Below are positions 1-23,864 of a stretch of DNA of 24,244 bases, in pieces; position 1 is the first letter of the stretch; each line of letters begins with the position of its first letter. The notes below the pieces were generated by a model. It had not been told where the DNA came from. It saw nothing but the letters and a program-made list of their open reading frames with translations, and did not search any database. The position numbers and the translations under genes are program-made. Origin of the DNA: Oscillatoria princeps RMCB-10 (GTDB taxonomy: Bacteria; Cyanobacteriota; Cyanobacteriia; Cyanobacteriales; Oscillatoriaceae); NCBI GenBank assembly GCA_019359235.1, contig JAHHHT010000036.1, positions 1-24,244 of the forward strand, given 5' to 3'.

Positions 1-215
1 TACGAACTTTTGGGCTGAAGCCCAACTACGAACTTTTGGGCTGAAGCCCAACTACGAACTTTTGGGCTGAAGCCCAACTACGAACTTTTGGGCTGAAGCC
101 CAACTACGAACTTTTGGGCTGAAGCCCAACTACGAACTTTTGGGCTGAAGCCCCATTGGGCTAAAGCCCAACTACGAACTTTGGGCTAAAGCCCAACTAC
201 GAACTTTGGGAGCAA
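1..215. repeat. Tandem array of a 26-bp unit (TACGAACTTTTGGGCTGAAGCCCAAC). There are about 6 perfect copies, then degenerate copies (GGGCTAAAGCCC variants). Each unit holds a palindrome TTGGGCT-GA-AGCCCAA. No spacers are present.
   Basis: The period-26 repetition from base 1 is directly visible. The array runs to the window edge and so may continue upstream. It lies just past the 3' end of the minus-strand tlyA-like gene. Confidence 0.9.
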
Positions 216-228
216 GCGTTCATCTGCG

Positions 229-1604: not shown

Positions 1605-1826
1605 CGGCGGTGGGGCGCGGTCGCTTTTGTTGCGGGTTGGAGTGCCGGTGGGACAGCAGTCCGGTTTGAGGCTATTTTGAAGCGTTTTAAAGCCGCCGCG
1701 GATCTGGGCTGACCGGTCAGAAGCCAGGACTCTTGGCCAACTTTTTATAGTTTCTGTTTAATCACTTATTTTTTGAAATGCCGGTTGGAAGGGCGGTGAG
1801 AAAGCCGGTTTCTGGATGCAAAAACA

Positions 1827-1863
1827 GTAGGGTGCGTTCCCCCTTTGGGGGAACGCACCCTAC
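1827..1863 (-). terminator. Perfect 17-bp stem / 3-nt loop hairpin GTAGGGTGCGTTCCCCC-TTT-GGGGGAACGCACCCTAC. On the minus strand it is followed by a T-run (the complement of AAAAACAG), so it is a candidate apcF terminator or a palindromic repeat element.
   Basis: Perfect inverted repeat read from the sequence. It shares the 12-mer AGTAGGGTGCGT with the 4726..5092 repeat family. It lies about 160 nt past the apcF stop. Confidence 0.5.
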
Positions 1864-2026: not shown

Positions 2027-2536
2027 TTAGATATCCTGTTCGCTCAGCTCGCGGGTCATGTGGTCAAAGGGCTGGTCGAGCCAAGGGCCAGGCTCAATTC
2101 CTGCAGATGCGACTTGTTGGCGGACAAGATCCTTGAGAATTTGAATCCCCAAAACGGTCGGGCCAATGGGCACGCCCAAAGAATTGTAGGTTTCCCGCAG
2201 ACCTTGCAGCACGCGCTCGTCGAGCACGTCCGTATCACCCGCCACTAGCGCGTAGGTGGCATAGCGGAGGTAATAGTCCATATCCCGCAGACAGGCTGCG
2301 TAGCGACGAGTGGTGTAGGCATTTCCACCAGGACGGATCAGTTCCGGCTGTTCGGCAAACAGCTGCGATCCAGCCTGCTTAACCAGCCCGGCTGCGTTAG
2401 CATTGATGGCAGCGGCGGCCTGAATCCGTGCCGTGCCGGTGGCAAAATAGGATTTCAGCCGGTCAATGGCATCCCGGTCGAGATAGCGACCCGTTACATC
2501 GTAGTTTTTAATCAGGCTTGTGATTGCGTCCCGCAT
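2027..2536 (-). CDS. apcF: Allophycocyanin beta-18 subunit ApcF, a phycobilisome core component.
   Basis: 169-aa ORF. MRDAITSLIKNYDVTGRYLDRDAIDRLKSYF...AAAAINANAAGLVKQAG..LFAEQPELIRPGGNAYTTRRYAACLRDMDYYLRYATYALVAGDTDVLDERVLQGLRETYNSLGVP matches the phycobiliprotein beta fold with the chromophore Cys in the CLRD motif. Length and N-terminus are typical of ApcF. A GGGAGAAG ribosome-binding site lies upstream. Confidence 0.85.
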   Translation of the reverse strand: MRDAITSLIKNYDVTGRYLDRDAIDRLKSYFATGTARIQAAAAINANAAGLVKQAGSQLFAEQPELIRPGGNAYTTRRYAACLRDMDYYLRYATYALVAGDTDVLDERVLQGLRETYNSLGVPIGPTVLGIQILKDLVRQQVASAGIEPGPWLDQPFDHMTRELSEQDI

Positions 2537-2774: not shown

Positions 2775-2935
2775 GCGGGTACTGGGCATGGGGCATGGGG
2801 CATGGGGCATGGGGTATGGGATTTCAGGACACCTAGCACCTAACCCCTAACTTCTAACCCCTGACCCCTAACACCTAACTTCTAACCCCTGACCCCTGAC
2901 CCCTAACCCCTAACCCCTTAGGGCGTGGGGGCTGG
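2775..2935. repeat. Heptanucleotide tandem repeats (STRR-like): GGGGCAT x4-5, then CCCTAAC / CCCTGAC / ACTTCTA variants x about 12.
   Basis: Period-7 repetition is visible in the apcF / glnA divergent intergenic region. The CCCTAAC units look telomere-like but have a 7-nt period. Confidence 0.8.
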
Positions 2936-3163: not shown

Positions 3164-4582
3164 ATGCCGCAAACCGCGCAAGAAGTCTTGCAGCTAATCC
3201 AAGAGCAAGATATAAAAATCGTAGACCTGAAATTTATCGACACGCCAGGGATCTGGCAGCACTGCTCGTTCTACCGCGACCTGATTGACGAGAGTGCCTT
3301 CGACGAGGGCGTGCCTTTCGACGGTTCCAGCATTCGGGGCTGGAAAGCCATCAACGAATCAGACATGTCAATGGTGCCCGATCCGACCACAGCTTGGATC
3401 GACCCGTTCATGAAAGAGAAGACCTTGAGCATGATCTGCAGCATCAAGGAACCGCGCACCAACGAGTGGTACAGCCGCGATCCGCGCACGATTGCTCAGA
3501 AGTCGATCGACTACCTGATTTCCACCGGCATTGGCGACACGGCTTTCATTGGCCCAGAAGCGGAGTTCTTCATCTTTGATGATGTCCGGTTTGACCAAAC
3601 CCAGAACACGGGCTATTACTATGTAGACTCAGTGGAAGGTCGCTGGAACTCCGGTAAAGAGGAAAAGCCAAACCTGGGTTACAAACCCCGCTACAAGGAA
3701 GGTTACTTCCCGGTTGCGCCAACGGACACGCAGCAGGACATCCGCACGGAGATGCTGCTGACGATGGCGGAATGCGGCGTCCCCATTGAAAAGCACCACC
3801 ACGAAGTGGCCACGGGCGGGCAGAACGAGCTGGGCTTCCGGTTTGACACTCTGGTGAAGGCCGCTGACTACCTGATGACTTATAAGTATGTCATCAAGAA
3901 CGTTGCCAAGAAGTACGGCAAAACCGTCACCTTCATGCCGAAACCGCTGTTTAACGACAACGGTTCTGGGATGCACACCCACCAGTCGATCTGGAAGGAT
4001 GGCCAACCCCTGTTCTGGGGCGATGGCTACGCCAACCTGAGCAAGACGGCGCTGCATTATATCGGCGGCTTGCTCAAGCACGCACCGGCGCTGCTGGCGC
4101 TCACCAACCCCACCACCAATTCCTACAAGCGGCTGGTTCCCGGGTTTGAAGCGCCGGTGAACTTGGCCTACTCCCAAGGCAACCGCTCAGCTTCGATTCG
4201 CATCCCGCTGTCGGGTACAAATCCCAAGGCCAAGCGGCTAGAGTTCCGCTGTCCCGACGCTACTTGCAACCCATACTTGGCGTTTGCGGCGATGCTGTGT
4301 GCCGGTTTGGATGGCATCAAGAACGAGATCGATCCGGGCGAGTCTCTGGATGTGGACATCTACGACCTGACCCCAGAAGAACTGGCCAAGGTGCCGTCCA
4401 CTCCCGGCTCTCTGCTAGACGCTCTCAAGGCGCTGGAAGCGGATCACGAGTTCCTGCTTGCCGGTGGGGTGTTCACGGAAGACTTCCTGACAACCTGGAT
4501 TGAGTACAAGATTGACAACGAAGTCAACCCGATGCGGCTGCGCCCGCACCCCTACGAGTTTGCGCTCTATTATGATTGCTAA
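3164..4582 (+). CDS. glnA: Glutamine synthetase type I (GlnA).
   Basis: 472-aa ORF with hallmark GSI regions throughout ([75 protein letters not shown]). AAGGAG ribosome-binding site. Confidence 0.97.
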
Positions 4583-4609
4583 TCTAGGCAATTCGTGAAC
4601 TTCTTAAGG

Positions 4610-4636
4610 ACGCCACCCTGCGGGGTGGCGTTTTTT
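4610..4636 (+). terminator. Rho-independent terminator of glnA: ACGCCACCC-TGCG-GGGTGGCGT followed by TTTTTT.
   Basis: A 9-bp GC-rich stem plus a T6 run, 28 nt after the glnA stop. Confidence 0.8.
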
Positions 4637-4643
4637 GTGATAA

Positions 4644-4712
4644 TGGGGCATGGGGCATGGGGTATGGGGCATGGGGGATTGGGCATTGGGCATTGGGCAT
4701 TGGGCATTGGTT
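4644..4712. repeat. Heptamer tandem repeats GGGGCAT / GGGGTAT / GGGCATT (about 9 units).
   Basis: Directly visible. Same family as the 2775..2935 array. Confidence 0.8.
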
Positions 4713-4725
4713 ACACCTAAGTATT

Positions 4726-5092
4726 AGTAGGGTGCGTGACGCCGCCGCACCGGCACTACTTGTGCGGAATTATCTCTTGGCGTCACGCACCCTACTGTAA
4801 AATAGTAGGCGTCACGCACCGCACGGCTGGACTTACTGGGGTGCGTGACGCCCCAACATAAGCGCACTATTTGTGCGGAATTATCTCTTGGCGGAAGGCA
4901 CCCTACTGTAAAATAGTGCGTGACGCCGCCGCACCGGCACTACTTGTGCGGAATTATCTCTTGGCATCACGCACCCTACTGTAAAATAGTAGGCGTCACG
5001 CACCGCACAGCTGGACTTACTGGGGTGCGTGACGCCGCCGCACAGGCGCACTACTTGTGCGGAATTATCTCTTGGCGTCACGCACCCTACTG
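4726..5092. repeat. Composite palindromic repeat array. Alternating modules A (AGTAGGGTGCGTGACGCC ... GGCGTCACGCACCCTACT around an inner CCGCAC..GTGCGG hairpin) and B (GGCGTCACGCACC ... GGTGCGTGACGCC), about 2.5 copies of a roughly 135-bp A+B unit.
   Basis: Nested inverted repeats and direct repetition were read from the sequence. The track ORF 4881..5081 (minus) lies wholly inside the array and is judged spurious. Confidence 0.85.
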
Positions 5093-5131
5093 CTGTTAAA
5101 ATTTGCTTCTCCCCCCAAAAGAGGAAAAATA

Positions 5132-5587
5132 ATGATGACCTCCGAAATTTTGAAAATCAATAGTCCTAAAGTAGTTCATGAAATCATTGACGGTGAAGTC
5201 GTAATTGTCCATCTGTTGAAAGGGCATTATTATAGCCTGGTCAAAACAGGGGCGGATATTTGGAGCGGAATTGAAAGAGGCATTTCTAGGGAGCGGATTC
5301 TGGAAGAGATGGTGAGCCGGTACGATGGCGATCCGGCAGATATTGAAAAGGCGGTAAACAATATGATAGAACAGTTGCAGGAGGAGGAACTGATCGCTGT
5401 CGCACAGACAGAGGAATCGGGAACTGCAGCCGCCGGCGCAATCGAAGCGAAGGCCAATCCAGAAAAGCTTAGCTTTGAGCCACCAAAGTTAGATAAGTAC
5501 ACGGATATGGAAGATTTGCTGCTGTTAGATCCCATCCATGAAGTTGATGAAACAGGCTGGCCCAATGTCAAGCCGGCGGGTGTGTGA
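5132..5587 (+). CDS. PqqD-family peptide chaperone / RiPP recognition element (RRE), with a roughly 60-aa acidic C-terminal extension.
   Basis: PKVVHEIIDGEVVIVHLLKGHYYSLVKTGADIWSGIERGISRERILEEMVSRYDGDPADIEKAVNNMIEQLQEEELI matches the PqqD / lasso B1 pattern (xxDGExVLLxxxxGxYYxLNxTGAxIWxLLxGxxxxxEIxxxLxxxYxxDxxxxxxDVxxFLxxLxxxGLI). The start was moved to the ATGATG at 5132, which has an AAGAGGA ribosome-binding site. The track start at 5057 lies inside the repeat array. Confidence 0.75.
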   Translation: MMTSEILKINSPKVVHEIIDGEVVIVHLLKGHYYSLVKTGADIWSGIERGISRERILEEMVSRYDGDPADIEKAVNNMIEQLQEEELIAVAQTEESGTAAAGAIEAKANPEKLSFEPPKLDKYTDMEDLLLLDPIHEVDETGWPNVKPAGV

Positions 5588-6678
5588 AAAGACTGATGAT
5601 AAACAAATTATTGCAGCCGGATATGGCAGCCAAGAATGCTATAATGGAGCCGCTGGAGTTTTTCGATGCGGTTTATCAAAAGTACGAAAAAGCTGAAGCT
5701 GCTGGCGGGGGGTGTGTTGAGCGTTATTATTGTATAGCCGGTTTTGCAGTTCGGTTGCGTTTTGCCGGAGGGGCGCTGCTACCATATATCACACCGGCTT
5801 TAGCGCACTTGGCGACAGAACCTGTTGGGGAGCCGGTGCTGACTGTGTGTTTGTGGGACAGTGACTCTACGAACACGGCAATGCCGCCGCCGCCTTGGCA
5901 AGCGGATGATTATCGAGATCGCGGGGAAATTCGAGGGTTCATCAACGAGCGAATTCAGACGATTTTCCAAGTAGGAGTGAATGCGCTGTCGCTTTTGGAC
6001 AGAGAGCGGAATTTGGGTATATACTGGGTTAAGACTGCCAAACAGATTCCCTACTATGAAAGTAGCGCTCCTCTGCGGGCAATTTTTCACTTGTGGATGA
6101 GTCAGCGGGGAATCCAACTGATTCATGCCGGTGCGGTGGGACTTCCCAGTGGGGGGGTGTTGCTGGTGGGAAAGGGGGGTTCGGGCAAATCGACCACAGC
6201 TCTAGCTTGTCTGAATTCCGAGCTTTTCTATGCTAGCGATGATTACTGTTTGCTGGCGCACCACCCCACCCCAACGGTTTTCAGTATTTACAGCACCGGC
6301 AAGAAAAATGCGGATGATGTGGGAAGATTGCCGTTTATGGTTTCACATATCAGCAATCCTGACCGGCTCGGTACAGAAAAAGCGGTTTATTTTTTGAGCG
6401 AGAGTTTTCCGGACAAACTTTTGCCAAGTTTTCCGCTCAGGGCAATTTTGATACCGCGCATTAGTGGGGGGAGAGAGACGGCATTGAAACCGGCATCGCC
6501 GGCTGCCGGTCTGGTGGCGCTGGCTCCGAGTACAATATTTCAATTGCCAGGTGCGGGGAAAGAGGCGTTTCAGACAATGGGACAACTTGTCAGGCAGGTT
6601 CCTTGCTATCAGCTGAACTTGGGCACTGACACCGGGCAAATTCCTGAGGTGATTTTAGAATTATTAGCGGATAATTAA
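5584..6678 (+). CDS. HPr kinase/phosphorylase-related kinase (HprK C-terminal-domain-like with a P-loop), of the kind seen as a RiPP or lasso-peptide tailoring kinase.
   Basis: GVLLVGKGGSGKSTTALACLNSELFYASDDYCLL parallels the HprK [30 protein letters not shown] core. The GTG start overlaps the upstream stop (GTGA), which suggests translational coupling with the RRE gene. Confidence 0.7.
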   Translation: MKRLMINKLLQPDMAAKNAIMEPLEFFDAVYQKYEKAEAAGGGCVERYYCIAGFAVRLRFAGGALLPYITPALAHLATEPVGEPVLTVCLWDSDSTNTAMPPPPWQADDYRDRGEIRGFINERIQTIFQVGVNALSLLDRERNLGIYWVKTAKQIPYYESSAPLRAIFHLWMSQRGIQLIHAGAVGLPSGGVLLVGKGGSGKSTTALACLNSELFYASDDYCLLAHHPTPTVFSIYSTGKKNADDVGRLPFMVSHISNPDRLGTEKAVYFLSESFPDKLLPSFPLRAILIPRISGGRETALKPASPAAGLVALAPSTIFQLPGAGKEAFQTMGQLVRQVPCYQLNLGTDTGQIPEVILELLADN

Positions 6679-6681
6679 GCC

Positions 6682-7458
6682 ATGCAATCTGACCAATTCT
6701 TTGTGAGCGTTATTATCCCCGTGTACAATGGAGAAGCTTTTTTGGCAGAAGCTGTTGAGAGTGTGCGGCAGCTTAATTACCATCCTCTAGAAATTCTCAT
6801 TGTAGACGATGGCTCGACAGATGGCACTGCCGTAATTGCCAAAAACTTCCAGGGGGATGTCCGCTATGTGTGGCAATCTAATAGTGGGCCATCTGCTGCC
6901 CGCAATACGGGACTGAAGATGGCAAGGGGGAACATTATCGCTTTTTTGGATGCGGACGATTTGTGGCCAAACAATAAATTAGAAATTCAGCTGGCGTGCT
7001 TGGCTGCAAATCCATCGGTCGAAATTGTCGGGGGGTACATACAGTATATGCGGCGCTCGGAGAGCGCTACAGACACACAATTATTGGTTGAATTTGCCGA
7101 ACCTATTGTTTCTTTTAACTTGGGGGGTGCGATTTTTAGGAGGCCGGTGTTTGACAGAATAGGCTTGTTTGACGAGAAGCTGCGTTACAGTGAGGATGTT
7201 GACTGGTTTATGCGAGCTTGGGAGAAGGGGGTTTCAATGCTTGTGTTGAAGCAGGTGACGCTGTTTTATCGAAGACACCTGGACAGCATGACTTATGGAA
7301 CCAATTTACACGATCTTAATTTCATTAAGATCCTCAAAAAATCTCTGGACCGGCGTCGGCAACAAAGCAATGGCTCAGCCGCGCCACTTCCTGGATTTTC
7401 CTATGTGGATGAACCTACAGGCAAGCCTACTGTAAACCACTTTGAAGAGGGATTATAA
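6682..7458 (+). CDS. Glycosyltransferase family 2 (short GT-A fold), paralog 1.
   Basis: VSVIIPVYNGEAFLAEAVESV..LEILIVDDGSTDGT...AARNTG...FLDADDLWPNNKL is the classic GT2 N-terminal domain with a DxD motif. Confidence 0.85.
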   Translation: MQSDQFFVSVIIPVYNGEAFLAEAVESVRQLNYHPLEILIVDDGSTDGTAVIAKNFQGDVRYVWQSNSGPSAARNTGLKMARGNIIAFLDADDLWPNNKLEIQLACLAANPSVEIVGGYIQYMRRSESATDTQLLVEFAEPIVSFNLGGAIFRRPVFDRIGLFDEKLRYSEDVDWFMRAWEKGVSMLVLKQVTLFYRRHLDSMTYGTNLHDLNFIKILKKSLDRRRQQSNGSAAPLPGFSYVDEPTGKPTVNHFEEGL

Positions 7459-7460
7459 CT

Positions 7461-8150
7461 GTGGAGAGACTGTTAGTGAGTGTTATTGTTCCTGTTTATA
7501 ATGGCGAGCGCTATTTATCGGCGGCGCTGGAAAGTATTTTCGCTCAGGACTATCATCCCTTCGAGGTGATTGTTGTGGATGATGGTTCGGTTGATAGCAC
7601 TGCGGCCATCGCCAAATCCTTCAAATCAGTTCAATATATCTACCAAACTAATCAGGGGATTGCTAATGCTATGAACAGGGGGATCGATGCTGCCGGTGGA
7701 GAATTGATTGCTTTTCTCGATCAAGATGACCTGTGGACACCCAACAAATTGAGGCTTCAGGTTGATTACTTGGTCAATCACCCAGAAATCCAATACGCGA
7801 TCTCCCTGGTGAAGTTTTTTCTGGAACCGGGGTGTTCTGTCCCGCCCGGCTTCAAAACAGAATTATTAGAGAAAGAACAGGTGGGTCGCATCCCCGGCGC
7901 TTTAATGGCCCGCAAATCTTTGTTGGCGCTAATCGGTCAATTTAATGCGGAGTTTACCATTGCATCCGATGCGGACTGGTTCGCCAGAGCTAAAGATAGT
8001 AACATACCTTGGGCTGTGATTCCTGAAGTTTTGCTTCACAAGCGCGTCCACAACACAAATGTTTCATCAAACGCACGATTGAACAACAAGGAGCTGTTGG
8101 CTTTACTGAGAAAATCAATTGCTCGCCAACAAAAATCCACTCAAGAATAG
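7461..8150 (+). CDS. Glycosyltransferase family 2, paralog 2.
   Basis: VSVIVPVYNGERYLSAALESI..FEVIVVDDGSVDSTA...FLDQDDLWTPNKL. Collinear with paralogs 1 and 3. It starts 2 nt after the previous stop. Confidence 0.85.
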   Translation: MERLLVSVIVPVYNGERYLSAALESIFAQDYHPFEVIVVDDGSVDSTAAIAKSFKSVQYIYQTNQGIANAMNRGIDAAGGELIAFLDQDDLWTPNKLRLQVDYLVNHPEIQYAISLVKFFLEPGCSVPPGFKTELLEKEQVGRIPGALMARKSLLALIGQFNAEFTIASDADWFARAKDSNIPWAVIPEVLLHKRVHNTNVSSNARLNNKELLALLRKSIARQQKSTQE

Positions 8151-8167
8151 CAAAAGGAATCCTCAAG

Positions 8168-8866
8168 ATGGGAAATCAGCCCCTAGTGAGCGCTATCGTA
8201 CCTGTGCGCAATTGCGAGCGCTATTTGGCAGAAGCGCTGGACAGTGCGCTGGCGCAGACTTACTTGCCGGTGGAGATATTTGTTGTGGATGACGGTTCAG
8301 CGGATGGGAGTGGGGAGATTGCCAAACGCTATGTGCCGGCTGTGCGGTATATCTTTCAAACCAGTGCCGGCGCTGCAGCAGCCAGAAACCGGGCAATTCC
8401 ACTAGCTAAGGGTGACTTTTTCGCTTTTCTGGATGCTGATGATGTCTGGCTTCCGGATAAACTTGCCCTGCAAATGGCAGCGTTTGATGCCGAACCAGAC
8501 CTTGACATTGTTACCGGCCATGTGCAACAATTTATCAGTCCAGAGTTAGACGCTGAAGGGATGAAAGGAGTTTATTGCCCACCTGAACCCATGCCAGGTT
8601 ATATCCCTACTGCTATACTCGTCAAGCGCGAAGCCTTTTTTCGGATTGGCTTGTTTGATGAAAATTATCCTGCCGAATATCAAATGGAATTTATCAACTG
8701 GTGTGCGCGTGCTGTGGAGCTTGGTTTGCATATAAAGGTGCTTCCCGAGTTAGTCGCGCGGCGGCGCTTGCACCAAACAAACCAGGAGCGCTCTCGCAAC
8801 TCGAGGCTGGAAATTGTGCGCATCCTGAAAGCTTCTCTCGACCGGCGGCGAGGTGAAAATGGGTAA
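8168..8866 (+). CDS. Glycosyltransferase family 2, paralog 3.
   Basis: VSAIVPVRNCERYLAEALDSA..VEIFVVDDGSADGS...AARNRAI..FLDADDVWLPDKL. Confidence 0.85.
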   Translation: MGNQPLVSAIVPVRNCERYLAEALDSALAQTYLPVEIFVVDDGSADGSGEIAKRYVPAVRYIFQTSAGAAAARNRAIPLAKGDFFAFLDADDVWLPDKLALQMAAFDAEPDLDIVTGHVQQFISPELDAEGMKGVYCPPEPMPGYIPTAILVKREAFFRIGLFDENYPAEYQMEFINWCARAVELGLHIKVLPELVARRRLHQTNQERSRNSRLEIVRILKASLDRRRGENG

Positions 8867-8898
8867 AAAATCGGGTTTCTTAAAGAAACCCGGTTTTT
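8865..8898 (+). terminator. Palindromic hairpin AAAAAATCGGGTTTCTT-A-AAGAAACCCGGTTTTT (10-bp stem flanked by an A-run and a T-run). It has a bidirectional terminator-like form and sits inside the operon between GT2 paralog 3 and the ABC gene.
   Basis: The perfect palindrome was read at 8872..8892. A T5 run lies downstream. It belongs to the dispersed GAAACCCGGTTTC family. Confidence 0.55.
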
Positions 8899-8929
8899 AG
8901 CCTCATGTGAAGGAAGTAAAGAACCGACA

Positions 8930-10588
8930 ATGAACTTACCAGCTTGGCGTTACTACAGTCAATTATACAAAGATTATTACCACTTGCTGTTCTGGAGCGT
9001 TGCAGCCTCCCTGGGGCAATCTGCGGTTTTCTTCCCCATTGCTTTGCTGGTACGCCATGTATTTGATGTCGCAATACCCACCGGCAACTTATCGCTTTTG
9101 GCGCTCACAGGAGTGGCGGTTCTTGTCCTGTACGCCGGCAACATGGCGCTGGCGCTCTGGACGAGATACATTATCCTTAAAATTACTAAAATTGCCATCC
9201 AGCGGCTGAGGGTTGAACTATTAAATAAGTTTTATGCTTTTTCGCGCTCCTACTACAGTCAAGCCGATACGAGCCAGTTGCACACGATTGCCGTTCAAGA
9301 TACCCTGCGCCTGGACATGATGAGCAATGCGCTAGTTGCCCAAGTCATCCCGGCACTGCTCATCTGTGCTGTTTTGAGCGCCGTGTTAATCGCAGTGAAT
9401 TGGTTTTTGTTTCTAGTGCTGGCGCTCGTCGCTCCTCTCATTTATCTGTTGAGCAAAAATCTGGGTAAAAAAGTAAAGCATTGGCTAAAAGCCTATCACC
9501 GCACATTTGAAAAATTCAGCAAAGGGATGCTATTTGTCCTGCAAAATATGGAACTCACCCAAATCCAATCGGCGGAGGAATTTGAAAGGGTGAGGCAAGG
9601 TAAATTGCTGAATGATGAGCGATTGACAAGCAGTGCGATGGCTTGGCTCTATACGGCTTACGGTCTGGCGCAAACCTTTACCGTCGCAGCAGCAAGTGTC
9701 CTGCTTTTAATGGCTGGCGGCTGGGCGATATCCGCCGGCTACATGACCTTAGGAGAGATGGTATCCTTTTATGTAGCGGCCAACTTGATGAGAACTTATG
9801 CCAACACAATTTCGCAAGCCATCCCCCAAATTATAGACGGAAATGAATCTCTGAGTGTTTTGTACGAGCTGTTACAGGTGAGCGACACAAGACCTTATGC
9901 CGGCACTGAAAAAATTGGCTTTCAGGGGAAAATCACTCTCAGGAACGTGAGTTTTTCTTACAGCGACAGGAGGATACTGTCAAATGTCACGCTGTCAGTC
10001 AATCCGGGAGAGACTGTAGCGATTGTCGGGCGCAACGGTGCCGGCAAAAGCACGATTCTTTATCTTATCTTAGGCTTTTACCGGCCACAAGAAGGAGAGC
10101 TGTGGGCAGATGACTGTCCCTTCAGCACACTGGACATTGCGCATCTGCGCCGGCAAATAGGAGTCGTCATGCAAAAGCCGGCAATCTTTGCGGGGACAAT
10201 TTGGGAAAATATCACCTATGGTGCGCCAGATGTGAGTTGCGAAAGGGTGATTGAATCTGCTAAAATAGCCACAGCCCATGAATTTATCCACCGGCTCCCA
10301 GAAGGCTACGAAACCTGTGTGGGAGAAGGGGGAATGCTGCTATCCGGTGGACAGCGCCAGCGGATAGCCATCGCCCGCGCTCTTGTGCGCCAACCCAAGC
10401 TCCTCATCCTCGATGAGCCAACCAATCATCTGGACGAAGCTGCTGTGAGCCAGCTGATAAAAAATCTCAAAGGCATGGCGGAAGCCCCCGCTATTCTTAT
10501 AATAAGTCATAATAGGGATATTGTGCGGGAAGCCAAACATGTGTATACTGTAAAAGATGGATGTCTGGTGGAAACCCTTTGGGGATGA
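8930..10588 (+). CDS. ABC transporter, fused permease/ATP-binding exporter. It resembles type I exporters of the kind that export lasso peptides and bacteriocins, and it has no peptidase domain.
   Basis: 552 aa. The N-terminal half is hydrophobic and reads as transmembrane. Walker [13 protein letters not shown] signature LSGGQRQR, Walker B LLILDEPT. Confidence 0.9.
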
Positions 10589-10615
10589 AAAGCAGAGAGG
10601 ATTTATCCCCCTTCC

Positions 10616-10697
10616 GTAGGACACGTCTCGTGTCCAAATCCAGGCGTAGGACAGGCGAGACGCCTGTCCAGACGCAGGACACGTCTCGTGTCCAAAT
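10616..10697. repeat. Three consecutive short hairpins: GGACACG-TCT-CGTGTCC, GGACAGGCG-AGA-CGCCTGTCC, GGACACG-TCT-CGTGTCC.
   Basis: Inverted repeats read at 10619..10635, 10649..10669 and 10677..10693, between the ABC gene and the nucleotidyltransferase gene. The middle hairpin recurs at 20413 and 22861. Confidence 0.7.
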
Positions 10698-10720
10698 TAG
10701 AACAAAAAAAAGGAGGTACA

Positions 10721-11941
10721 ATGCAAGAGTGGCAAATGAATACAAAGGAAAATATGGGCGGCTACAAGCCGACTCACCAGCAAGGATTGCTCTTACGAGC
10801 TGCGCTTTTGCAAGGTGAAAACGCCCTCGCAGCTTGGGAGGAATGGAGAGCGGCTGTTGATATTCAACGTCTCGATGCTGGTTCCTATCGGTTACTGCCT
10901 TTATTGTATCGCAATTTGTCGCTTCATGGGGTAAATGACCCCCTGATGGCAAAATTTAAGGGAGTCTACCGGAACACCTGGTGCAAAAACCAACTCTCAT
11001 TTAAGAAAGTCTCAGCTGTGATGCGGGCTTTTCACGAGGCGGGGATTCAAACCATGCTCCTGAAAGGGGCGGCTTTGTCCTTAAATTATTACCGAGATTA
11101 TGGCCTCCGTCCCATGAGTGATTTTGACCTTATCGTCCCTACTGCAGACGCTTTACCAGCAATGAAGTTGTTGAGGGAATTGGGGTGGGAAACTTCTGTA
11201 GAAAGACCGGAAAGATATATAGATTTAACGCACGCCGCCGGAGGATTTTCTGATGAATACGGAACAAAAATGGATCTCCACTGGCATGTATTACACCAGT
11301 GCCTTCAAGAGAATGCTGACGAGGATTTCTGGAAGGGCGCGATATCTGTTAAAATAGATGATTTGTCAACCCATGTCTTAAACCCGACCGATCAGTTATT
11401 TCACGTCTGCGTGCATGGATGGCATGGGGATGTATTTCCGACAATTCGCTGGGTGGCTGACGCGATGACGGTGATTAACTCATCTCCAGATGCAATTGAT
11501 TGGCACCGGCTAGTCGCACAGGCTGAAAAAAGACAATTGGTTTTGCGGTTAAAAGATACACTGCCGATATTGCGCGACCTTTTGGACGCCCCAGTACCCC
11601 TATCGATTATACAAGATATCGAAAAGCTACCCATTGCAGCAATTGAGCGGCTCGAATATAAGAGTTCACCAGGCAGACTGATACGAGGATTCGGGAGTTT
11701 GCCAATGATATATACTTCTTATGTGAGGCGGAGTATGAATGATGGCAGTTTCAACCTTTTAGGTTTGGCAAGGCATCTGCAATATTACTTGGGGTTGGAA
11801 CACTTATGGCAGCTTCCCTTGGATGTGATTAAGCGGGGTATAAGAAGGATTTGGATTGACCTCTTAGGAGGAAAGTCTGCGCCAATTCCAACAAAACGGG
11901 CATTTCGCCAGGAGCGCGAAGCCAGTAAAACTTCAGTTTAG
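10721..11941 (+). CDS. Nucleotidyltransferase-family protein (NTP_transf_5 / lasso-cluster-associated nucleotidyltransferase-like).
   Basis: MLLKGAALSLNYYRDYGLRPMSDFDLIVP...LGWE is the signature region as I remember it for that family. The start was moved to the ATG at 10721, which has an AAGGAGG ribosome-binding site. The track GTG start at 10688 lies inside a hairpin. Confidence 0.6.
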   Translation: MQEWQMNTKENMGGYKPTHQQGLLLRAALLQGENALAAWEEWRAAVDIQRLDAGSYRLLPLLYRNLSLHGVNDPLMAKFKGVYRNTWCKNQLSFKKVSAVMRAFHEAGIQTMLLKGAALSLNYYRDYGLRPMSDFDLIVPTADALPAMKLLRELGWETSVERPERYIDLTHAAGGFSDEYGTKMDLHWHVLHQCLQENADEDFWKGAISVKIDDLSTHVLNPTDQLFHVCVHGWHGDVFPTIRWVADAMTVINSSPDAIDWHRLVAQAEKRQLVLRLKDTLPILRDLLDAPVPLSIIQDIEKLPIAAIERLEYKSSPGRLIRGFGSLPMIYTSYVRRSMNDGSFNLLGLARHLQYYLGLEHLWQLPLDVIKRGIRRIWIDLLGGKSAPIPTKRAFRQEREASKTSV

Positions 11942-12006
11942 TTGCAGTGGCGCATTCGCCGCACAATCGCAATTATGGAGTTTCTCAGTTGGATGAAATA
12001 TGGCCC

Positions 12007-12040
12007 AAAAACCCGGTTTCTTTAAGAAACCGGGTTTCTC
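12007..12040. repeat. Palindromic hairpin AAACCCGGTTTCTT-TA-AAGAAACCGGGTTT of the GAAACCCGGTTTC family, 65 nt after the nucleotidyltransferase stop.
   Basis: Inverted repeat read directly. An A-run lies upstream, and there is only a weak U-tract downstream on the plus strand. Confidence 0.6.
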
Positions 12041-12218
12041 ACTACCTCACTAATATGAGGAATGCTATAGGGCATTTTAATGAATAAATCATAGTCAAAT
12101 TAAATGCCTAACAGCCGGCAGCTAGGGGGGAGCTGTCTGCCGGCTTGGCAAACGCTACCTTTATGTGTTACAATTATTTACAGTAGACGCCATTGCTTAC
12201 ACAGACCCAGCCATTCTT

Positions 12219-13277
12219 ATGTCTGACACCTTAACAAAACTGGCATACCAGACTTTTCAACAGGGCAAAAGTTACTTCGGTCTGGCTCACAAAGCCTTAA
12301 GTTCCAACTTGCGGAACTTATTGTATCCTGCTAGCACTCCTCAGACTAAACCTATCGGCTCGGCTCTGATAGAACTCCTTCAACAAAGGAGCGCTCAGCT
12401 CCTGGAAACAGACTGGCTGGATGCTGAGCGGGGCGTGTATCCCACCAGCTTGCTCTTTGACAATCCTTGGGAAGACTTCTTTCGCTACTATCCCGTGGTT
12501 TGCCTGGATCTGCCGCCAATCTGGGAGCGGATTCAGCAGAAGAAATCTCAGGAATTTTCGCCAGAGATTGAGACGGAAGGCTATCCCAACTACTATTTGC
12601 AAAACTTCCACCACCAGACAAACGGCTACTTGAGCGACATGTCAGCCAATCTCTATGACTTGCAGGTGGAGCTTCTTTTTGGTGGCACCGCCGATCCCAT
12701 GCGGCGGCGAATCCTGGCTCCTCTAAAGCAAGGGCTGAATGCTTTTAGCTCAACTCCTCCCCACCAAATCCGGGTTCTAGATATAGCTTGCGGAACCGGG
12801 CGCAGCCTGAAATTAATCCGAGCTGCTCTCCCTAAAGCATCCCTATTTGGCACTGACTTGTCACCGGCTTACTTGCGCAAGGCAAATCAGCTGCTGTCGC
12901 AAAATCCAGGGGAATTGCCGCAACTCCTGCAGGCTAATGCAGAGGAACTGCCCTATAAAGATAGCTACTTCCACGCAGTCACGAGCGTTTTTCTCTTCCA
13001 CGAACTTCCGCCGGCGGCGCGTCAGAAGGTGATCCAGCAGTGCTTCCGAGTCACTCAGCCAGGGGGAGTCTTTATTATCTGTGACGCTATTCAGGTGAGC
13101 GATTCTCCGGAATTCATGCCAATGATGGAAAACTTCCCAGATATGTTCCACGAACCCTACTACAAGCATTATATCACAGATGACCTGACAGAACGTTTAG
13201 AAAAAGCCGGCTTCACGAATATTTCTACTGAAGTCCACTTGTTTAGCAAGTATTGGGTCGCTCACAAGCCGGCCTAA
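12219..13277 (+). CDS. Class I SAM-dependent methyltransferase (Methyltransf_11/25-like).
   Basis: VLDIACGTGRSLKLI (SAM motif I), with an acidic motif II region and YKDSYFHAVTSVFLFHELP downstream. The start was taken at the ATG at 12219. The track lists an alternative GTG at 12165. Confidence 0.8.
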   Translation: MSDTLTKLAYQTFQQGKSYFGLAHKALSSNLRNLLYPASTPQTKPIGSALIELLQQRSAQLLETDWLDAERGVYPTSLLFDNPWEDFFRYYPVVCLDLPPIWERIQQKKSQEFSPEIETEGYPNYYLQNFHHQTNGYLSDMSANLYDLQVELLFGGTADPMRRRILAPLKQGLNAFSSTPPHQIRVLDIACGTGRSLKLIRAALPKASLFGTDLSPAYLRKANQLLSQNPGELPQLLQANAEELPYKDSYFHAVTSVFLFHELPPAARQKVIQQCFRVTQPGGVFIICDAIQVSDSPEFMPMMENFPDMFHEPYYKHYITDDLTERLEKAGFTNISTEVHLFSKYWVAHKPA

Positions 13278-14765: not shown

Positions 14766-14778
14766 AGCGCCGGTGTTG

Positions 14779-15125
14779 AAATCTCAGAAACCGGGTTTCT
14801 TTTGGTTTTCCCTGCAACAAATTGATTTTTCCCGGGAAAGAAACCCGGTTTCTTCACCCCGCCAGAAACTCTCAGAAACCGGGTTTCTTTTGGTTTTCCC
14901 TGCAACAAATTGATTTTTCCCGGGAAAGAAACCCGGTTTCTTCACCCCGCCAGAAACTCTCAGAAACCGGGTTTCTTTTGGTTTTCCCTGCAACAAATTG
15001 ATTTTTCCCGGGAAAGAAACCCGGTTTCTTCACCCCGCCAGAAACTCTCAGAAACCGGGTTTCTTTTGGTTTTCCCTGCAACAAATTGGTCTTGATAGGC
15101 ATTGAAACCCGGTTTCTTCACCCCG
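14779..15125. repeat. Tandem array of an 88-bp unit (3 perfect copies plus a divergent fourth). Each unit is a long hairpin AGAAACCGGGTTTCTTT...AAAGAAACCCGGTTTCT.
   Basis: Exact 88-bp periodicity, with unit starts at 14787, 14875 and 14963. The track ORFs 14784..14996 and 14872..15102 are frame artefacts of the repeat. Confidence 0.9.
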
Positions 15126-22744: not shown

Positions 22745-22957
22745 TACCTTCGTGTAAATTTCAGAACCCCGGTTTCGTAGGGGCGGGCCCCCGTGCCCGC
22801 CCTCTTGCCTCGTTCCCAGGCTCCCGCCTGGGAACGATACAATAGAGGCTCTGACTTGAAAATAGGACAGGCGTCCCGCCTGTCCTACGTCTTTTTTTTA
22901 CATACGCCGCTTCCCCTCGGTGTGAGGTGGGTGACGCTGCGCGTCACCCACCCTACT
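22745..22957. repeat. Cluster of structured repeats: an AACCCCGGTTTC element, GGGGCGGGCCCCCGTGCCCGCCC, a CGTTCCCAGGC..GCCTGGGAACG hairpin, GGACAGGCG-TCC-CGCCTGTCC followed by T8 (a likely bidirectional terminator for tex and the convergent methyltransferase gene), and GGTGGGTGACGC-TGC-GCGTCACCCACC.
   Basis: All inverted repeats were read directly. The T-run TTTTTTTT lies at 22885..22892. Confidence 0.75.
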
Positions 22958-23693
22958 TCTGGAAGATCAGAATATGCTGCTGGGGTAAGGAACTGTTGGT
23001 TTCCCGCCAGGACAGCCCCACCGCCGCCATTTCTTGGCGCACTTGCTTCTGGGTCATTTTGTGGAGAGCTTTGATGGGGATGAAAGGATTCTCGCCCCGG
23101 TACTCCACGAGAACCGCACGCCCCCCCGGTTTGAGCGCTCGCACCACACCTTCCATCATCTCTTTTGGATGCTCAAACTCGTGGTAGGCATCCACCATGA
23201 GCGCTAAGTCAACGCTTGATTCTGGAAGGTTGGGGGAAGTCAGGCTGCCTAAAACCGGCTCGACGCTGGCAATCTTTTTTTCGCTTTTGAAGAATTCAAT
23301 AATGTCGAGCATCTCCGGCTGAATGTCCACTGCCATAACTTTTCCTTGTGGCACTAGGGGGGCGATGCGAAAGCTGAAATAGCCGGTGCCGGCTCCGATG
23401 TCCGCCACAACATCGGTTGGTTTGAGCTTCAGGGCGCTCACCACTTTAGAAGGCTGCTCCTCACTCTCGCGAGAAGCTCGCTCCAGCCAGCCTGCTCCCT
23501 GATGTCCCATCACTTGAGCGATTTCTCGCTTCATGTAGAATTTGCCAATTCCGTCCGGACTGTGGAATTGCCGGTACTGGTAAATCTCTGCCGGTTCAGT
23601 TCCTGCAAAAGCTAGTGGCGTTCCGCCGGCAAGAAGCCACCCGCACAGGATAGCAAAGATAGTCGCTGTCAGACGTAACCAATAGGATTTCAT
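22953..23693 (-). CDS. Class I SAM-dependent methyltransferase with an N-terminal signal peptide (predicted exported or membrane-anchored).
   Basis: MKSYWLRLTATIFAILCGWLLAGGTPLAFAG is signal-like. VADIGAGTGYFS is SAM motif I, and VLVEYRGENPF lies downstream. The start was taken at the internal ATG at 23693. The track lists an alternative upstream start at 23810. Confidence 0.7.
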   Translation of the reverse strand: MKSYWLRLTATIFAILCGWLLAGGTPLAFAGTEPAEIYQYRQFHSPDGIGKFYMKREIAQVMGHQGAGWLERASRESEEQPSKVVSALKLKPTDVVADIGAGTGYFSFRIAPLVPQGKVMAVDIQPEMLDIIEFFKSEKKIASVEPVLGSLTSPNLPESSVDLALMVDAYHEFEHPKEMMEGVVRALKPGGRAVLVEYRGENPFIPIKALHKMTQKQVRQEMAAVGLSWRETNSSLPQQHILIFQK

Positions 23694-23864
23694 GCTATTT
23701 TTCGCCTTCACTGGCACTCCACGTTTGATGGGGCTCTCAAAAAGCTGCCCTGCTTTGAACAATACCTGACGGCTGCGTTCGGGCGAGACAGCGCGGGGTT
23801 TAGAGGTCATTTATAGCGGTTCTCAGTTTGATGTATAGCAGTATTCACTTAGTTTAGGACATTT

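What the first reader, a model, noticed from the sequence alone, without database searches (positions are those of the whole stretch)
4726..5092. Composite A/B palindromic module array after glnA, with a related perfect hairpin at 1827 and a cousin at 22925
About 2.5 copies of a roughly 135-bp unit are made of two different nested-hairpin modules sharing GGTGCGTGACGCC arms. The 12-mer AGTAGGGTGCGT also begins the perfect 17-bp hairpin at 1827..1863, and CACCCTACT ends the hairpin at 22925..22957. This looks like a family of MITE-like or REP-like elements, possibly transcribed as a structured RNA trailing the highly expressed glnA. It also supplies the artefactual 25-codon upstream extension of the RRE ORF.
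Basis: seen in the sequence. Interest (0 to 1): 0.5.

Follow-up and report, generated by a model that had tools for sequence, protein, structure and literature searches.

The report
Cyanobacterial REP hairpin cluster after glnA
The repeat block after glnA is four side-by-side copies of a GTAG-headed palindromic hairpin, the cyanobacterial version of bacterial REP elements, copied locally from one old resident element; it is an ordinary selfish-type repeat, with one unexplained oddity in how well it is conserved.

Summary
The repeat is real. It is 2.0 copies of a 184-bp unit, not about 2.5 copies of 135 bp. That makes four head-to-tail hairpin units (short, long, short, long) separated by GTAAAAT. 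All use the arm GTAG-GGTGCGTGACGCC.

The array lies downstream of glnA's own intrinsic terminator and just upstream of the true ATG (5132) of a PqqD-like gene.

The exact 17-nt arm occurs 95 times in eight cyanobacterial genomes (Calothrix, Dulcicalothrix, Phormidium, Oscillatoria). It nearly always forms a roughly 65-70-bp hairpin with a 32-40-nt loop. At least 11 stem variants have matching changes on both arms.

The head plus basal stem, GTAGGGTGCGT...ACGCACC, is the same as in the REPs that flank REP-associated tyrosine transposase (RAYT) genes in Limnospira, Okeania and another cyanobacterium. In Limnospira these REPs also form long-loop tandem arrays.

Relatives carry one (Kamptonema) or two homologous units at the same site. 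The array is therefore a local amplification of an old resident REP, like a BIME cluster.

No RAYT gene could be checked in the source genome, and no consistent target-site duplication was found.

One thing is unexplained: the array plus leader shows 1 mismatch in 472 bp against a sister lineage that is 5% diverged elsewhere.

Verdict: new member of a known kind; modest interest.

The parts
4606..4637 (+). Intrinsic terminator of glnA (AAGGACGCCACCC-TGCG-GGGTGGCGTTTTTT). It separates glnA from the array.
   Evidence: Sequence. It is the first strong hairpin in the RNA fold. It is conserved in Kamptonema and ERZ28782765. Only weak Rfam matches to sRNA 3' terminators occur here.
4643..4710 (.). 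Heptamer microsatellite (GGGCATG/GGGCATT)n directly upstream of the array.
   Evidence: TRF 4646-4710, period 7. It is the most variable stretch against the sister lineage: 83% identity plus a 19-nt indel. The Calothrix elements also sit in heptamer arrays.
4726..4796 (.). Unit U1, short form: AGTAG-GGTGCGTGACGCC, 35-nt loop with an inner CCGCAC/GTGCGG stem, GGCGTCACGCACC-CTACT. The GTAG head is present on both strands.
   Evidence: Perfect 18-nt arms (I3). DNA fold -29.4 kcal/mol, z = -9.1.
4804..4907 (.). Unit U2, long form: AGTA + right-type arm (4808-4820) + 19 nt + left arm (4840-4852) + loop + degenerate right arm GGCGGAAGGCACCCTACT. The degenerate arm resembles the Kamptonema arm GGCGGAACGCACC.
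   Evidence: It folds as the inside-out 'B' hairpin, z = -4.7. Comparison with L190.
4915..4980 (.). Unit U3, short form with a truncated head (AGT|GCGTGACGCC) and one arm mismatch (GGCATCACGCACC).
   Evidence: DNA fold -16.9 kcal/mol, z = -4.4.
4988..5091 (.). Unit U4, long form: inside-out junction hairpin 4992-5036, then an intact left arm, a 37-nt loop and the right arm GGCGTCACGCACCCTACT.
   Evidence: DNA fold -30.2 kcal/mol, z = -5.1.
5092..5131 (+). 40-nt leader with AAGAGGA ribosome-binding site upstream of the true ATG of the PqqD-like gene (5132-5587). It is identical in the sister lineage.
1827..1863 (.). Short family member: GTAG-GGTGCGTTCCCCC-TTT-GGGGGAACGCACC-CTAC, between convergent genes. 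On the minus strand it is followed by TGTTTTTG.
   Evidence: DNA fold -22.5 kcal/mol, z = -8.9. The orthologue in L123 keeps the stem with a changed loop.
22926..22957 (-). Canonical REP shape on the minus strand: unpaired 5' GTAG, 12-bp stem GGTGGGTGACGC/GCGTCACCCACC, 3-nt loop. The head overlaps the TAG stop of the methyltransferase gene.
   Evidence: DNA fold z = -6.6.

Best explanation
The block is a cluster of four REP-type elements. Each has a GTAG tag next to a G+C-rich stem, here with an unusually long loop of 35-37 nt. It belongs to the cyanobacterial REP superfamily whose head and basal stem read GTAG-GGTGCGT...ACGCACC.

Shown:
- The hairpin family is dispersed across cyanobacteria.
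- The stem is kept by compensatory changes while the loops drift to the host's base composition.
- The same head and basal stem flank RAYT genes in other cyanobacteria.
- The same spacer holds one homologous unit in Kamptonema, two in a second relative and four here.

Inferred:
- As shown for E. coli RayT, the element folds as a hairpin in single-stranded DNA. A RAYT (HUH/Y1 transposase) then binds the stem and cuts at the GTAG tag, which is how family members spread.
- This particular array grew afterwards by local tandem duplication and deletion. Recombination or slippage between the identical arms would do this, and it produced the inside-out 'B' junction hairpins.
- Any effect on glnA or the downstream PqqD operon would be a by-product of the stable hairpins.
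For: 1. Dispersal. The exact 17-mer gives 95 cyanobacterial stretches in eight genomes, 53 of them in one Calothrix MAG. The other 15 hits are single chance-level matches in unrelated phyla.
2. Structure. 116 arm pairs have loops of 32-40 nt.
3. Covariation. When sites are anchored only on GGTGCGT...ACGCACC, the variable hexamers are complementary in at least 11 different types, such as GACGCC/GGCGTC, GAAAGC/GCTTTC, TCCCCC/GGGGGA, TCCGCC/GGCGGA and CACCCC/GGGGTG. The mean is 4.98 of 6 paired, against 4.08 when partners are shuffled.
4. Composition. Loops are 24-30% G+C in Calothrix and 47-57% in Oscillatoria and Phormidium, while the arms stay at 77%.
5. Link to RAYT. RAYT genes in Limnospira (L198), Okeania (L197) and a JGI 7.8-Mb cyanobacterium (L199) are flanked by GTAGGGTG[CT]GTTA...TAACGCACC. 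Those in Kovacikia, Gloeocapsa and Calothrix PCC 7507 are flanked by GTAGGATGCGTTA.... A Planctomycete RAYT is flanked by GTAGGGTGCGTCGCGACGCACC (PMC6006769 supplement).
6. Arrays elsewhere. Limnospira has 108-bp x12 and 81-bp x7 arrays of long-loop REPs beside its RAYT gene.
7. Local origin. Orthologous spacers have 1, 2 and 4 units with homologous loops that share the ACTTGTGCGGA motif. These loops occur nowhere else in the sequence held.
8. Density in the source genome. 40.6 kb holds four GTAG-hairpin loci, and GTAGGGTG occurs 9 times against 1.2 expected.
9. Mechanism precedent. E. coli RAYT binds single-stranded REP DNA and cuts at GTAG, as summarised in PMC3733652.
Against: - No RAYT gene was seen in the 40.6 kb of the source genome, nor in any 8-kb block around the 95 cyanobacterial hits. 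Linkage in the genomes that carry this exact arm is therefore unproven.
- The units are larger than canonical REPs: 13-18-bp stem with a 35-nt loop, against 20-40 bp in total. In the O. princeps lineage the GTAG head is paired with CTAC rather than left unpaired.
- The four loci in the source genome each have a different distal stem, unlike the near-identical copies of classic REP families.
- The near-perfect conservation of the array between two lineages is not predicted by a purely selfish element.
Confidence: 0.65

Rival explanations
1. The array, or its last unit plus leader, is a co-opted functional element of this locus. It could be a 5' leader or promoter module of the PqqD-type operon, or an insulator or terminator stack between the highly expressed glnA and that operon, kept by purifying selection. 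This does not exclude a REP origin.
For: - A homologous unit sits at the same place in all four lineages examined.
- 4704-5175 has 1 mismatch in 472 bp against 5.1% elsewhere, and it contains the longest mismatch-free runs of the alignment.
- The RNA fold is -244.7 kcal/mol, z = -6.6.
- TAAAAT, which resembles a -10 box, lies in each spacer and before the leader.
Against: - Unit number varies among relatives (1, 2, 4, and possibly 1 in L189).
- Positions that differ between the two repeat copies are still identical between lineages. That points to a recent shared origin (a recombination tract) rather than constraint on each base.
- Loops are only about as conserved as neutral spacer at genus distance.
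- The same arms occur in unrelated contexts.
- The promoter scan is weak and the spacing is off.
- glnA already has its own terminator.
Confidence: 0.15
2. The units are classical MITEs: a deleted DDE insertion sequence with 17-18-bp terminal inverted repeats, moved by cut-and-paste.
For: - The arms are inverted and perfect, and the unit is about 70 bp.
- One Calothrix copy carries a nested insertion of a related element.
- There is a slight excess of 2-3-nt identical flanks: 12 of 105 against 3.6 expected for 3-mers.
Against: - There is no fixed-length target duplication.
- Nearly all arm sites pair at 30-70 nt. No pair encloses a gene anywhere in 1.4 Mb.
- Short members with 3-nt loops (1827, 22926) cannot be deleted insertion sequences.
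- The head is the REP tag GTAG, and it matches REPs that flank RAYT genes.
- A true MITE with a TA duplication sits next to the orthologous REP in L192 and looks quite different.
Confidence: 0.08
3. It is a purely local duplication of a chance palindrome, with no wider family.
For: The loops and the B loop are unique to this locus.
Against: There are 95 exact-arm sites in eight cyanobacterial genomes and related hairpins elsewhere in the same genome. Covariation across stem types also argues against chance.
Confidence: 0.02

Closest known systems
GTAG-tagged REPs and REPtrons (REP + RAYT/TnpA_REP), including the cyanobacterial families GTAG-12/15/16 of Di Nocera et al. 2013 (PMC3733652) and the RAYT subclasses found in Cyanobacteria (Quentin et al. 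2018, PMC6006769)
   Same: - A 5' GTAG tag directly next to a G+C-rich stem.
- Extragenic position at gene 3' ends.
- Occurrence as singletons, dimers and clusters.
- Head and basal stem identical to the REPs that flank RAYT genes in Limnospira, Okeania and a JGI cyanobacterium.
   Different: - The loop is 32-40 nt, against 2-5 nt in canonical REPs and 9-15 nt in GTAG-15.
- In the O. princeps lineage the tag is present, and paired, on both sides.
- The distal stem is GACGCC or TCCCCC rather than TTAGCG.
- Linkage to a RAYT gene in the same genome is not shown.
- The published consensus sequences are in a figure I could not read.
BIMEs (bacterial interspersed mosaic elements) of E. coli: clusters of REPs with fixed linkers
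   Same: Several REP units are packed in one intergenic spacer with a constant short linker (GTAAAAT). Copy number differs between relatives.
   Different: BIMEs alternate REPs in inverted orientation with defined linker motifs and protein-binding sites (from my own knowledge). Here the units are head-to-tail, and each unit is itself symmetric.
REPINs (REP doublets forming hairpins; Bertels and Rainey 2011, PMC3116915)
   Same: Two inverted tagged arms separated by a spacer fold into one long hairpin. The elements persist and are inherited vertically at orthologous sites.
   Different: Each REPIN arm is itself a REP palindrome. Here a single arm (GGTGCGTGACGCC) is not a stable hairpin on its own.
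Limnospira/Arthrospira RAYT-flanking arrays
   Same: Units of GTAG-GGTGCGTTAGGCAC, a loop of about 39 nt, then GTGCCGTAACGCACC, repeated head-to-tail 7-12 times. This is the same architecture as the window's array.
   Different: They lie directly beside a RAYT gene, have a different distal stem and loop, and have higher copy numbers.

Membership tests
REP (GTAG super-family) | GT[AG]G tetranucleotide 0-2 nt 5' of a hairpin whose basal stem is G+C-rich | tested here: met
   GTAG abuts the stem in U1, U4 (minus strand), 1827 (both strands) and 22926 (minus strand). 105 head-oriented elements were found in other genomes.
REP (GTAG super-family) | Short imperfect palindrome of 20-40 bp with a small loop | tested here: inconclusive
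   Met by 1827 (37 bp) and 22926 (about 31 bp). The array units are 66-104 bp with 35-37-nt loops. Comparable long-loop units flank a RAYT gene in Limnospira.
REP (GTAG super-family) | Many dispersed, mostly extragenic copies in one genome | tested here: inconclusive
   There are 53 exact-arm stretches in the Calothrix FI2-JRJ7 MAG. For the source genome only 40.6 kb could be read: four loci, GTAGGGTG 9 times against 1.2 expected. The whole genome was not scanned.
REP (GTAG super-family) | Stem maintained by selection (compensatory changes) | tested here: met
   At least 11 complementary hexamer types lie between the constant anchors, above the shuffled control. The orthologous unit has TTCC/GGAA in Kamptonema and TGAC/GTCA here.
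REPtron (REP + RAYT) | A RAYT (Y1/HUH, PF01797) gene in the same genome, flanked by the cognate REPs | not testable with these tools
   No RAYT was found in the window, in the 40.6 kb, or in the 1.4 Mb of loci. Two protein searches listed only the best 120 hits, and none came from the 8,634,711-bp contig.
REPtron (REP + RAYT) | Sequence identity of the tag and basal stem with REPs that flank RAYT genes in related organisms | tested here: met
   GTAGGGTGCGT(T) is shared with the RAYT-flanking REPs of L198 and L199, and with L197 bar one base. L194-L196 differ by one base (GTAGGATGCGT). PMC6006769 lists GTAGGGTGCGTCGCGACGCACC.
MITE | Terminal inverted repeats plus a fixed-length target-site duplication, related to a full-length insertion sequence | tested here: not met
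   Inverted arms are present. There is no fixed duplication and no longer element with these ends.
REPIN | Two REP palindromes in inverted orientation forming a long hairpin | tested here: inconclusive
   Two inverted tagged arms with a spacer are present, but a single arm is not itself a hairpin-forming REP (sequence).
Known structured RNA family (Rfam 15) | Match to a covariance model | tested here: not met
   No match at gathering score in the window. At E <= 1 only weak terminator-type matches occur at 4560-4641, and none in the array.
glnA 3' UTR | Lies between the stop codon and the first terminator | tested here: not met
   The terminator hairpin plus T-run at 4606-4637 precedes the array. 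Read-through cannot be tested without RNA data.

The most novel reading that the evidence does not exclude
The REP array together with the 40-nt leader has been co-opted as a selectively maintained cis element. It might act as a promoter or 5'-leader module, or as an insulator stack, controlling the PqqD-type RiPP-like operon next to the nitrogen-regulated glnA. That would explain why 472 bp show one change between lineages that differ by 5% elsewhere, and why a homologous unit has stayed at this exact site across genera.
Probability: 0.12. Interest if true: 0.55.

Novelty: new member of a known kind. Interest (0 to 1): 0.3.

Why it matters
It explains a confusing repeat block, removes a false N-terminal extension from a RiPP-recognition gene, and shows the array is not part of the glnA transcript unit.

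More broadly, cyanobacterial REPs have a conserved foot, GTAG-GGTGCGT. Behind it the distal stem and a long loop vary freely. One exact 17-nt arm is shared between Nostocales and Oscillatoriales.

This gives a simple search key for annotating such elements and for pairing them with the widespread 183-aa cyanobacterial RAYT family. It also offers a natural series of 1, 2 and 4 units for studying how REP clusters grow.

Tried and rejected
- Rfam at gathering score and at E <= 1: no match in the array.
- Literature search by sequence strings: only chance primer matches.
- Elhai et al. 2008 on small dispersed repeats in Nostoc is not held, so I could not compare with the SDR families.
- The Di Nocera consensus sequences are only in a figure, and the supplements lack them.
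- RAYT search in all fetched loci found nothing. I used E. coli RayT, the Kovacikia RAYT, and HUH/Y motif patterns.
- I looked for the source genome's RAYT with two protein searches. Only 120 hits are listed per search, and none came from the 8.63-Mb contig or from Kamptonema.
- A plasmid search found only two cyanobacterial RAYTs.
- A search for a long element bounded by the arms found none.
- The target-duplication test gave no fixed length.
- An NtcA site (GTA-N8-TAC) and a sigma-70 promoter in the spacers were considered. By eye and by scan these are only partial matches, so I make no claim.
- The metagenome scan did not contain the source contig, so there is no genome-wide copy number for the source.

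Full report
**What is there**

The window is a reversed piece of an 8.63-Mb JGI contig. Its PqqD-like protein is identical to that of Oscillatoria princeps RMCB-10.

The layout runs as follows:
- glnA ends at 4582.
- A textbook intrinsic terminator follows at 4606-4637 (ACGCCACCC-TGCG-GGGTGGCGT plus a T-run). It is conserved in relatives. It is also the only part of the spacer with even weak Rfam matches, to sRNA 3' ends.
- A heptamer microsatellite occupies 4643-4710.
- The array occupies 4726-5092.
- A 40-nt leader with a ribosome-binding site comes next.
- The true ATG of the PqqD-like gene is at 5132.

**Anatomy**

Tandem Repeats Finder gives period 184, 2.0 copies, 93% matches. Read by eye, there are four head-to-tail units separated by GTAAAAT.

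- U1 (4726-4796) and U3 (4915-4980) are short. Their form is AGTAG-GGTGCGTGACGCC, a 35-nt loop with an inner CCGCAC/GTGCGG stem, then GGCGTCACGCACC-CTACT.
- U2 (4804-4907) and U4 (4988-5091) are long. After AGTA they carry a right-type arm, 19 nt, then a normal left arm, loop and right arm.

The same inside-out hairpins appear wherever two units stand in tandem in other genomes.

The arm 17-mer has 12 matches with up to 3 mismatches in the window, against 0.08 expected. Folding is far beyond shuffled controls: DNA z = -11.1 for the array, and -4.4 to -9.1 for single units.

**A dispersed family**

Exact-match scans with GTAGGGTGCGTGACGCC found 71 stretches in metagenome contigs and 110 in species-representative genomes. 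Of the 110, 95 lie in eight cyanobacteria:

| Genome | Stretches |
|---|---|
| Calothrix sp. FI2-JRJ7 | 53 |
| Calothrix PCC 7103 | 11 |
| Phormidium CCY1219 | 8 |
| Calothrix NIES-4105 | 7 |
| Calothrix HK-06 | 7 |
| Dulcicalothrix PCC 7102 | 4 |
| Oscillatoria MAG | 4 |
| Oscillatoria Prado101 | 1 |

The other 15 are single hits in unrelated phyla, as chance allows.

Nearly every site is one arm of a hairpin with a 32-40-nt loop. Loops are alignable within Calothrix but unrelated to those of Oscillatoria. They follow the host's base composition: 24-30% G+C in Calothrix and 47-57% in Oscillatoria and Phormidium. The arms stay at 77%.

When sites are anchored only on the constant GGTGCGT...ACGCACC, the six variable stem positions are complementary in at least 11 different versions. 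The stem, not the loop, is what is maintained.

**Link to REP-associated transposases**

GTAG-tagged REPs are known in cyanobacteria (PMC3733652). RAYT subclasses flanked by 'long canonical REPs with 5' GT[AG]G' are also known there (PMC6006769). That paper's supplement lists GTAGGGTGCGTCGCGACGCACC beside a RAYT gene.

Starting from E. coli RayT, I found cyanobacterial RAYT genes and a widespread 183-aa family. I then read the flanks of six of these genes.

| RAYT locus | Flanking REP |
|---|---|
| Kovacikia, Gloeocapsa, Calothrix PCC 7507 | GTAGGATGCGTTA...TAACGCATC |
| Okeania, Limnospira, a JGI 7.8-Mb genome | GTAGGGTG[CT]GTTA...TAACGCACC |

The window's elements share GTAGGGTGCGT(T) exactly. 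In Limnospira the RAYT gene is embedded in arrays of long-loop REPs (108 bp x12 and 81 bp x7). That is the same architecture as here.

The family assignment therefore rests on the tag, the basal stem and the architecture. Linkage to a RAYT in the source genome could not be tested. None lies in 40.6 kb of that genome or in 1.4 Mb of flanks.

**History of this array**

glnA and the PqqD gene are also neighbours in relatives.
- Kamptonema formosum has one homologous unit: arms GCGTTCCGCC/GGCGGAACGC, with the ACTTGTGCGGA-type motif in the loop.
- A second relative (ERZ28782765) has two units.
- The O. princeps lineages have four.

The arm difference TTCC/GGAA versus TGAC/GTCA is compensatory. U2's degenerate right arm still resembles the Kamptonema type.

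The loop and the 19-nt junction sequence occur nowhere else in the sequence held. So an old resident REP was amplified on the spot, and the composite units as such are not mobile.

One short-read contig shows a single unit. This is either real copy-number variation or an assembly collapse.

**Unexplained conservation**

Against the orthologous contig of an Oscillatoria MAG, the 4.47-kb alignment differs at 5.1% overall. glnA is 96.8% identical, the PqqD gene 96.3%, the next ORF 93.1% and the upstream spacer 93.6%.

Yet 4704-5175 has a single mismatch, and it contains the longest mismatch-free run of the whole alignment, 351 bp.

Even positions that differ between the two 184-bp copies are identical in both lineages. 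I therefore favour a recent shared origin of this tract (recombination) over base-by-base selection. With only two lineages this stays open. It is the basis of the 'novel case'.

**Other members in the source genome**

40.6 kb of the source genome holds four tagged hairpin loci:
- one 4.3 kb upstream of the window (GTAGGGTGCGCCCGGCGCACCCTAT)
- 1827-1863
- the array
- 22926-22957

Each has a different distal stem. All lie at gene ends. The 22926 head supplies the TAG stop of the neighbouring gene.

**Verdict**

This is a REP cluster of a cyanobacterial GTAG family: a new member of a known kind. The mobilisation mechanism is inferred by analogy, and the one real oddity is the conservation.

Noticed in passing
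window 1-217: Tandem array of a 26-bp unit, TACGAACTTTTGGGCTGAAGCCCAAC, x5.9. Each unit holds a small hairpin, TTGGGC-TGAA-GCCCAA. It is a different repeat family at the window edge.
   Followed up: no
window 14778-15125: An 88-bp unit repeated 4.0 times (96% matches), with GAAACCGGGTTTC-type hairpins. It lies between a lipoate-ligase-like gene and an M50 peptidase gene.
   Followed up: no
window 2784-2918 and 4643-4710: Heptamer microsatellites (GGGCATG, CCTAACC, GGGCATT). The one next to the array is the fastest-changing stretch against the sister lineage: 83% identity plus a 19-nt indel. Calothrix REPs are also embedded in heptamer arrays.
   Followed up: partly
L192 2654-2797 (orthologous spacer of ERZ28782765): A 144-bp element with terminal inverted repeats (TAGCAGTTTTCAC... 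/ ...AAAATCTGCTA) is inserted at a TA, 8 bp upstream of the REP, with the TA duplicated. This looks like a true MITE. It is absent from the window.
   Followed up: partly
window 5132-13277: A RiPP-like gene cluster lies directly after the array. It holds a PqqD-like recognition protein, a ScmC-like protein (faint hit), three family-2 glycosyltransferases, an ABC exporter, an NTP_transf_5 protein and a methyltransferase. It is syntenic with glnA in Kamptonema.
   Followed up: no
window 22953-22956: The GTAG tag of the minus-strand REP overlaps the TAG stop codon of the methyltransferase gene 22953-23810(-).
   Followed up: no
window 1815-1863, minus strand: On the minus strand the perfect hairpin is followed by TGTTTTTG. 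It may therefore serve as the terminator of the phycobilisome-family gene 2027-2536(-).
   Followed up: no
L199 1905-1950: Next to a RAYT gene, the REP tail is extended into (ACCCTACAA)x5. Short tandem repeats may arise by slippage of REP heads.
   Followed up: no
L198 186-1891 and 2557-3114: The Limnospira RAYT gene is embedded in very large arrays of long-loop REPs: 108 bp x11.9, 144 bp x3.6 and 81 bp x6.9. A second 183-aa ORF is called right after it.
   Followed up: partly
L189 1-170: A short-read contig of the sister lineage carries one unit (U1 left side joined to the exit of U4) instead of four. This is either real copy-number polymorphism or an assembly collapse.
   Followed up: partly
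L154 / L023 (Calothrix FI2-JRJ7): A member of a second family (arms GTAGGGTGCGTGAAAGC) is nested inside the loop of a GACGCC-type element, replacing 8 nt of the loop. This suggests insertion of one element into another.
   Followed up: partly
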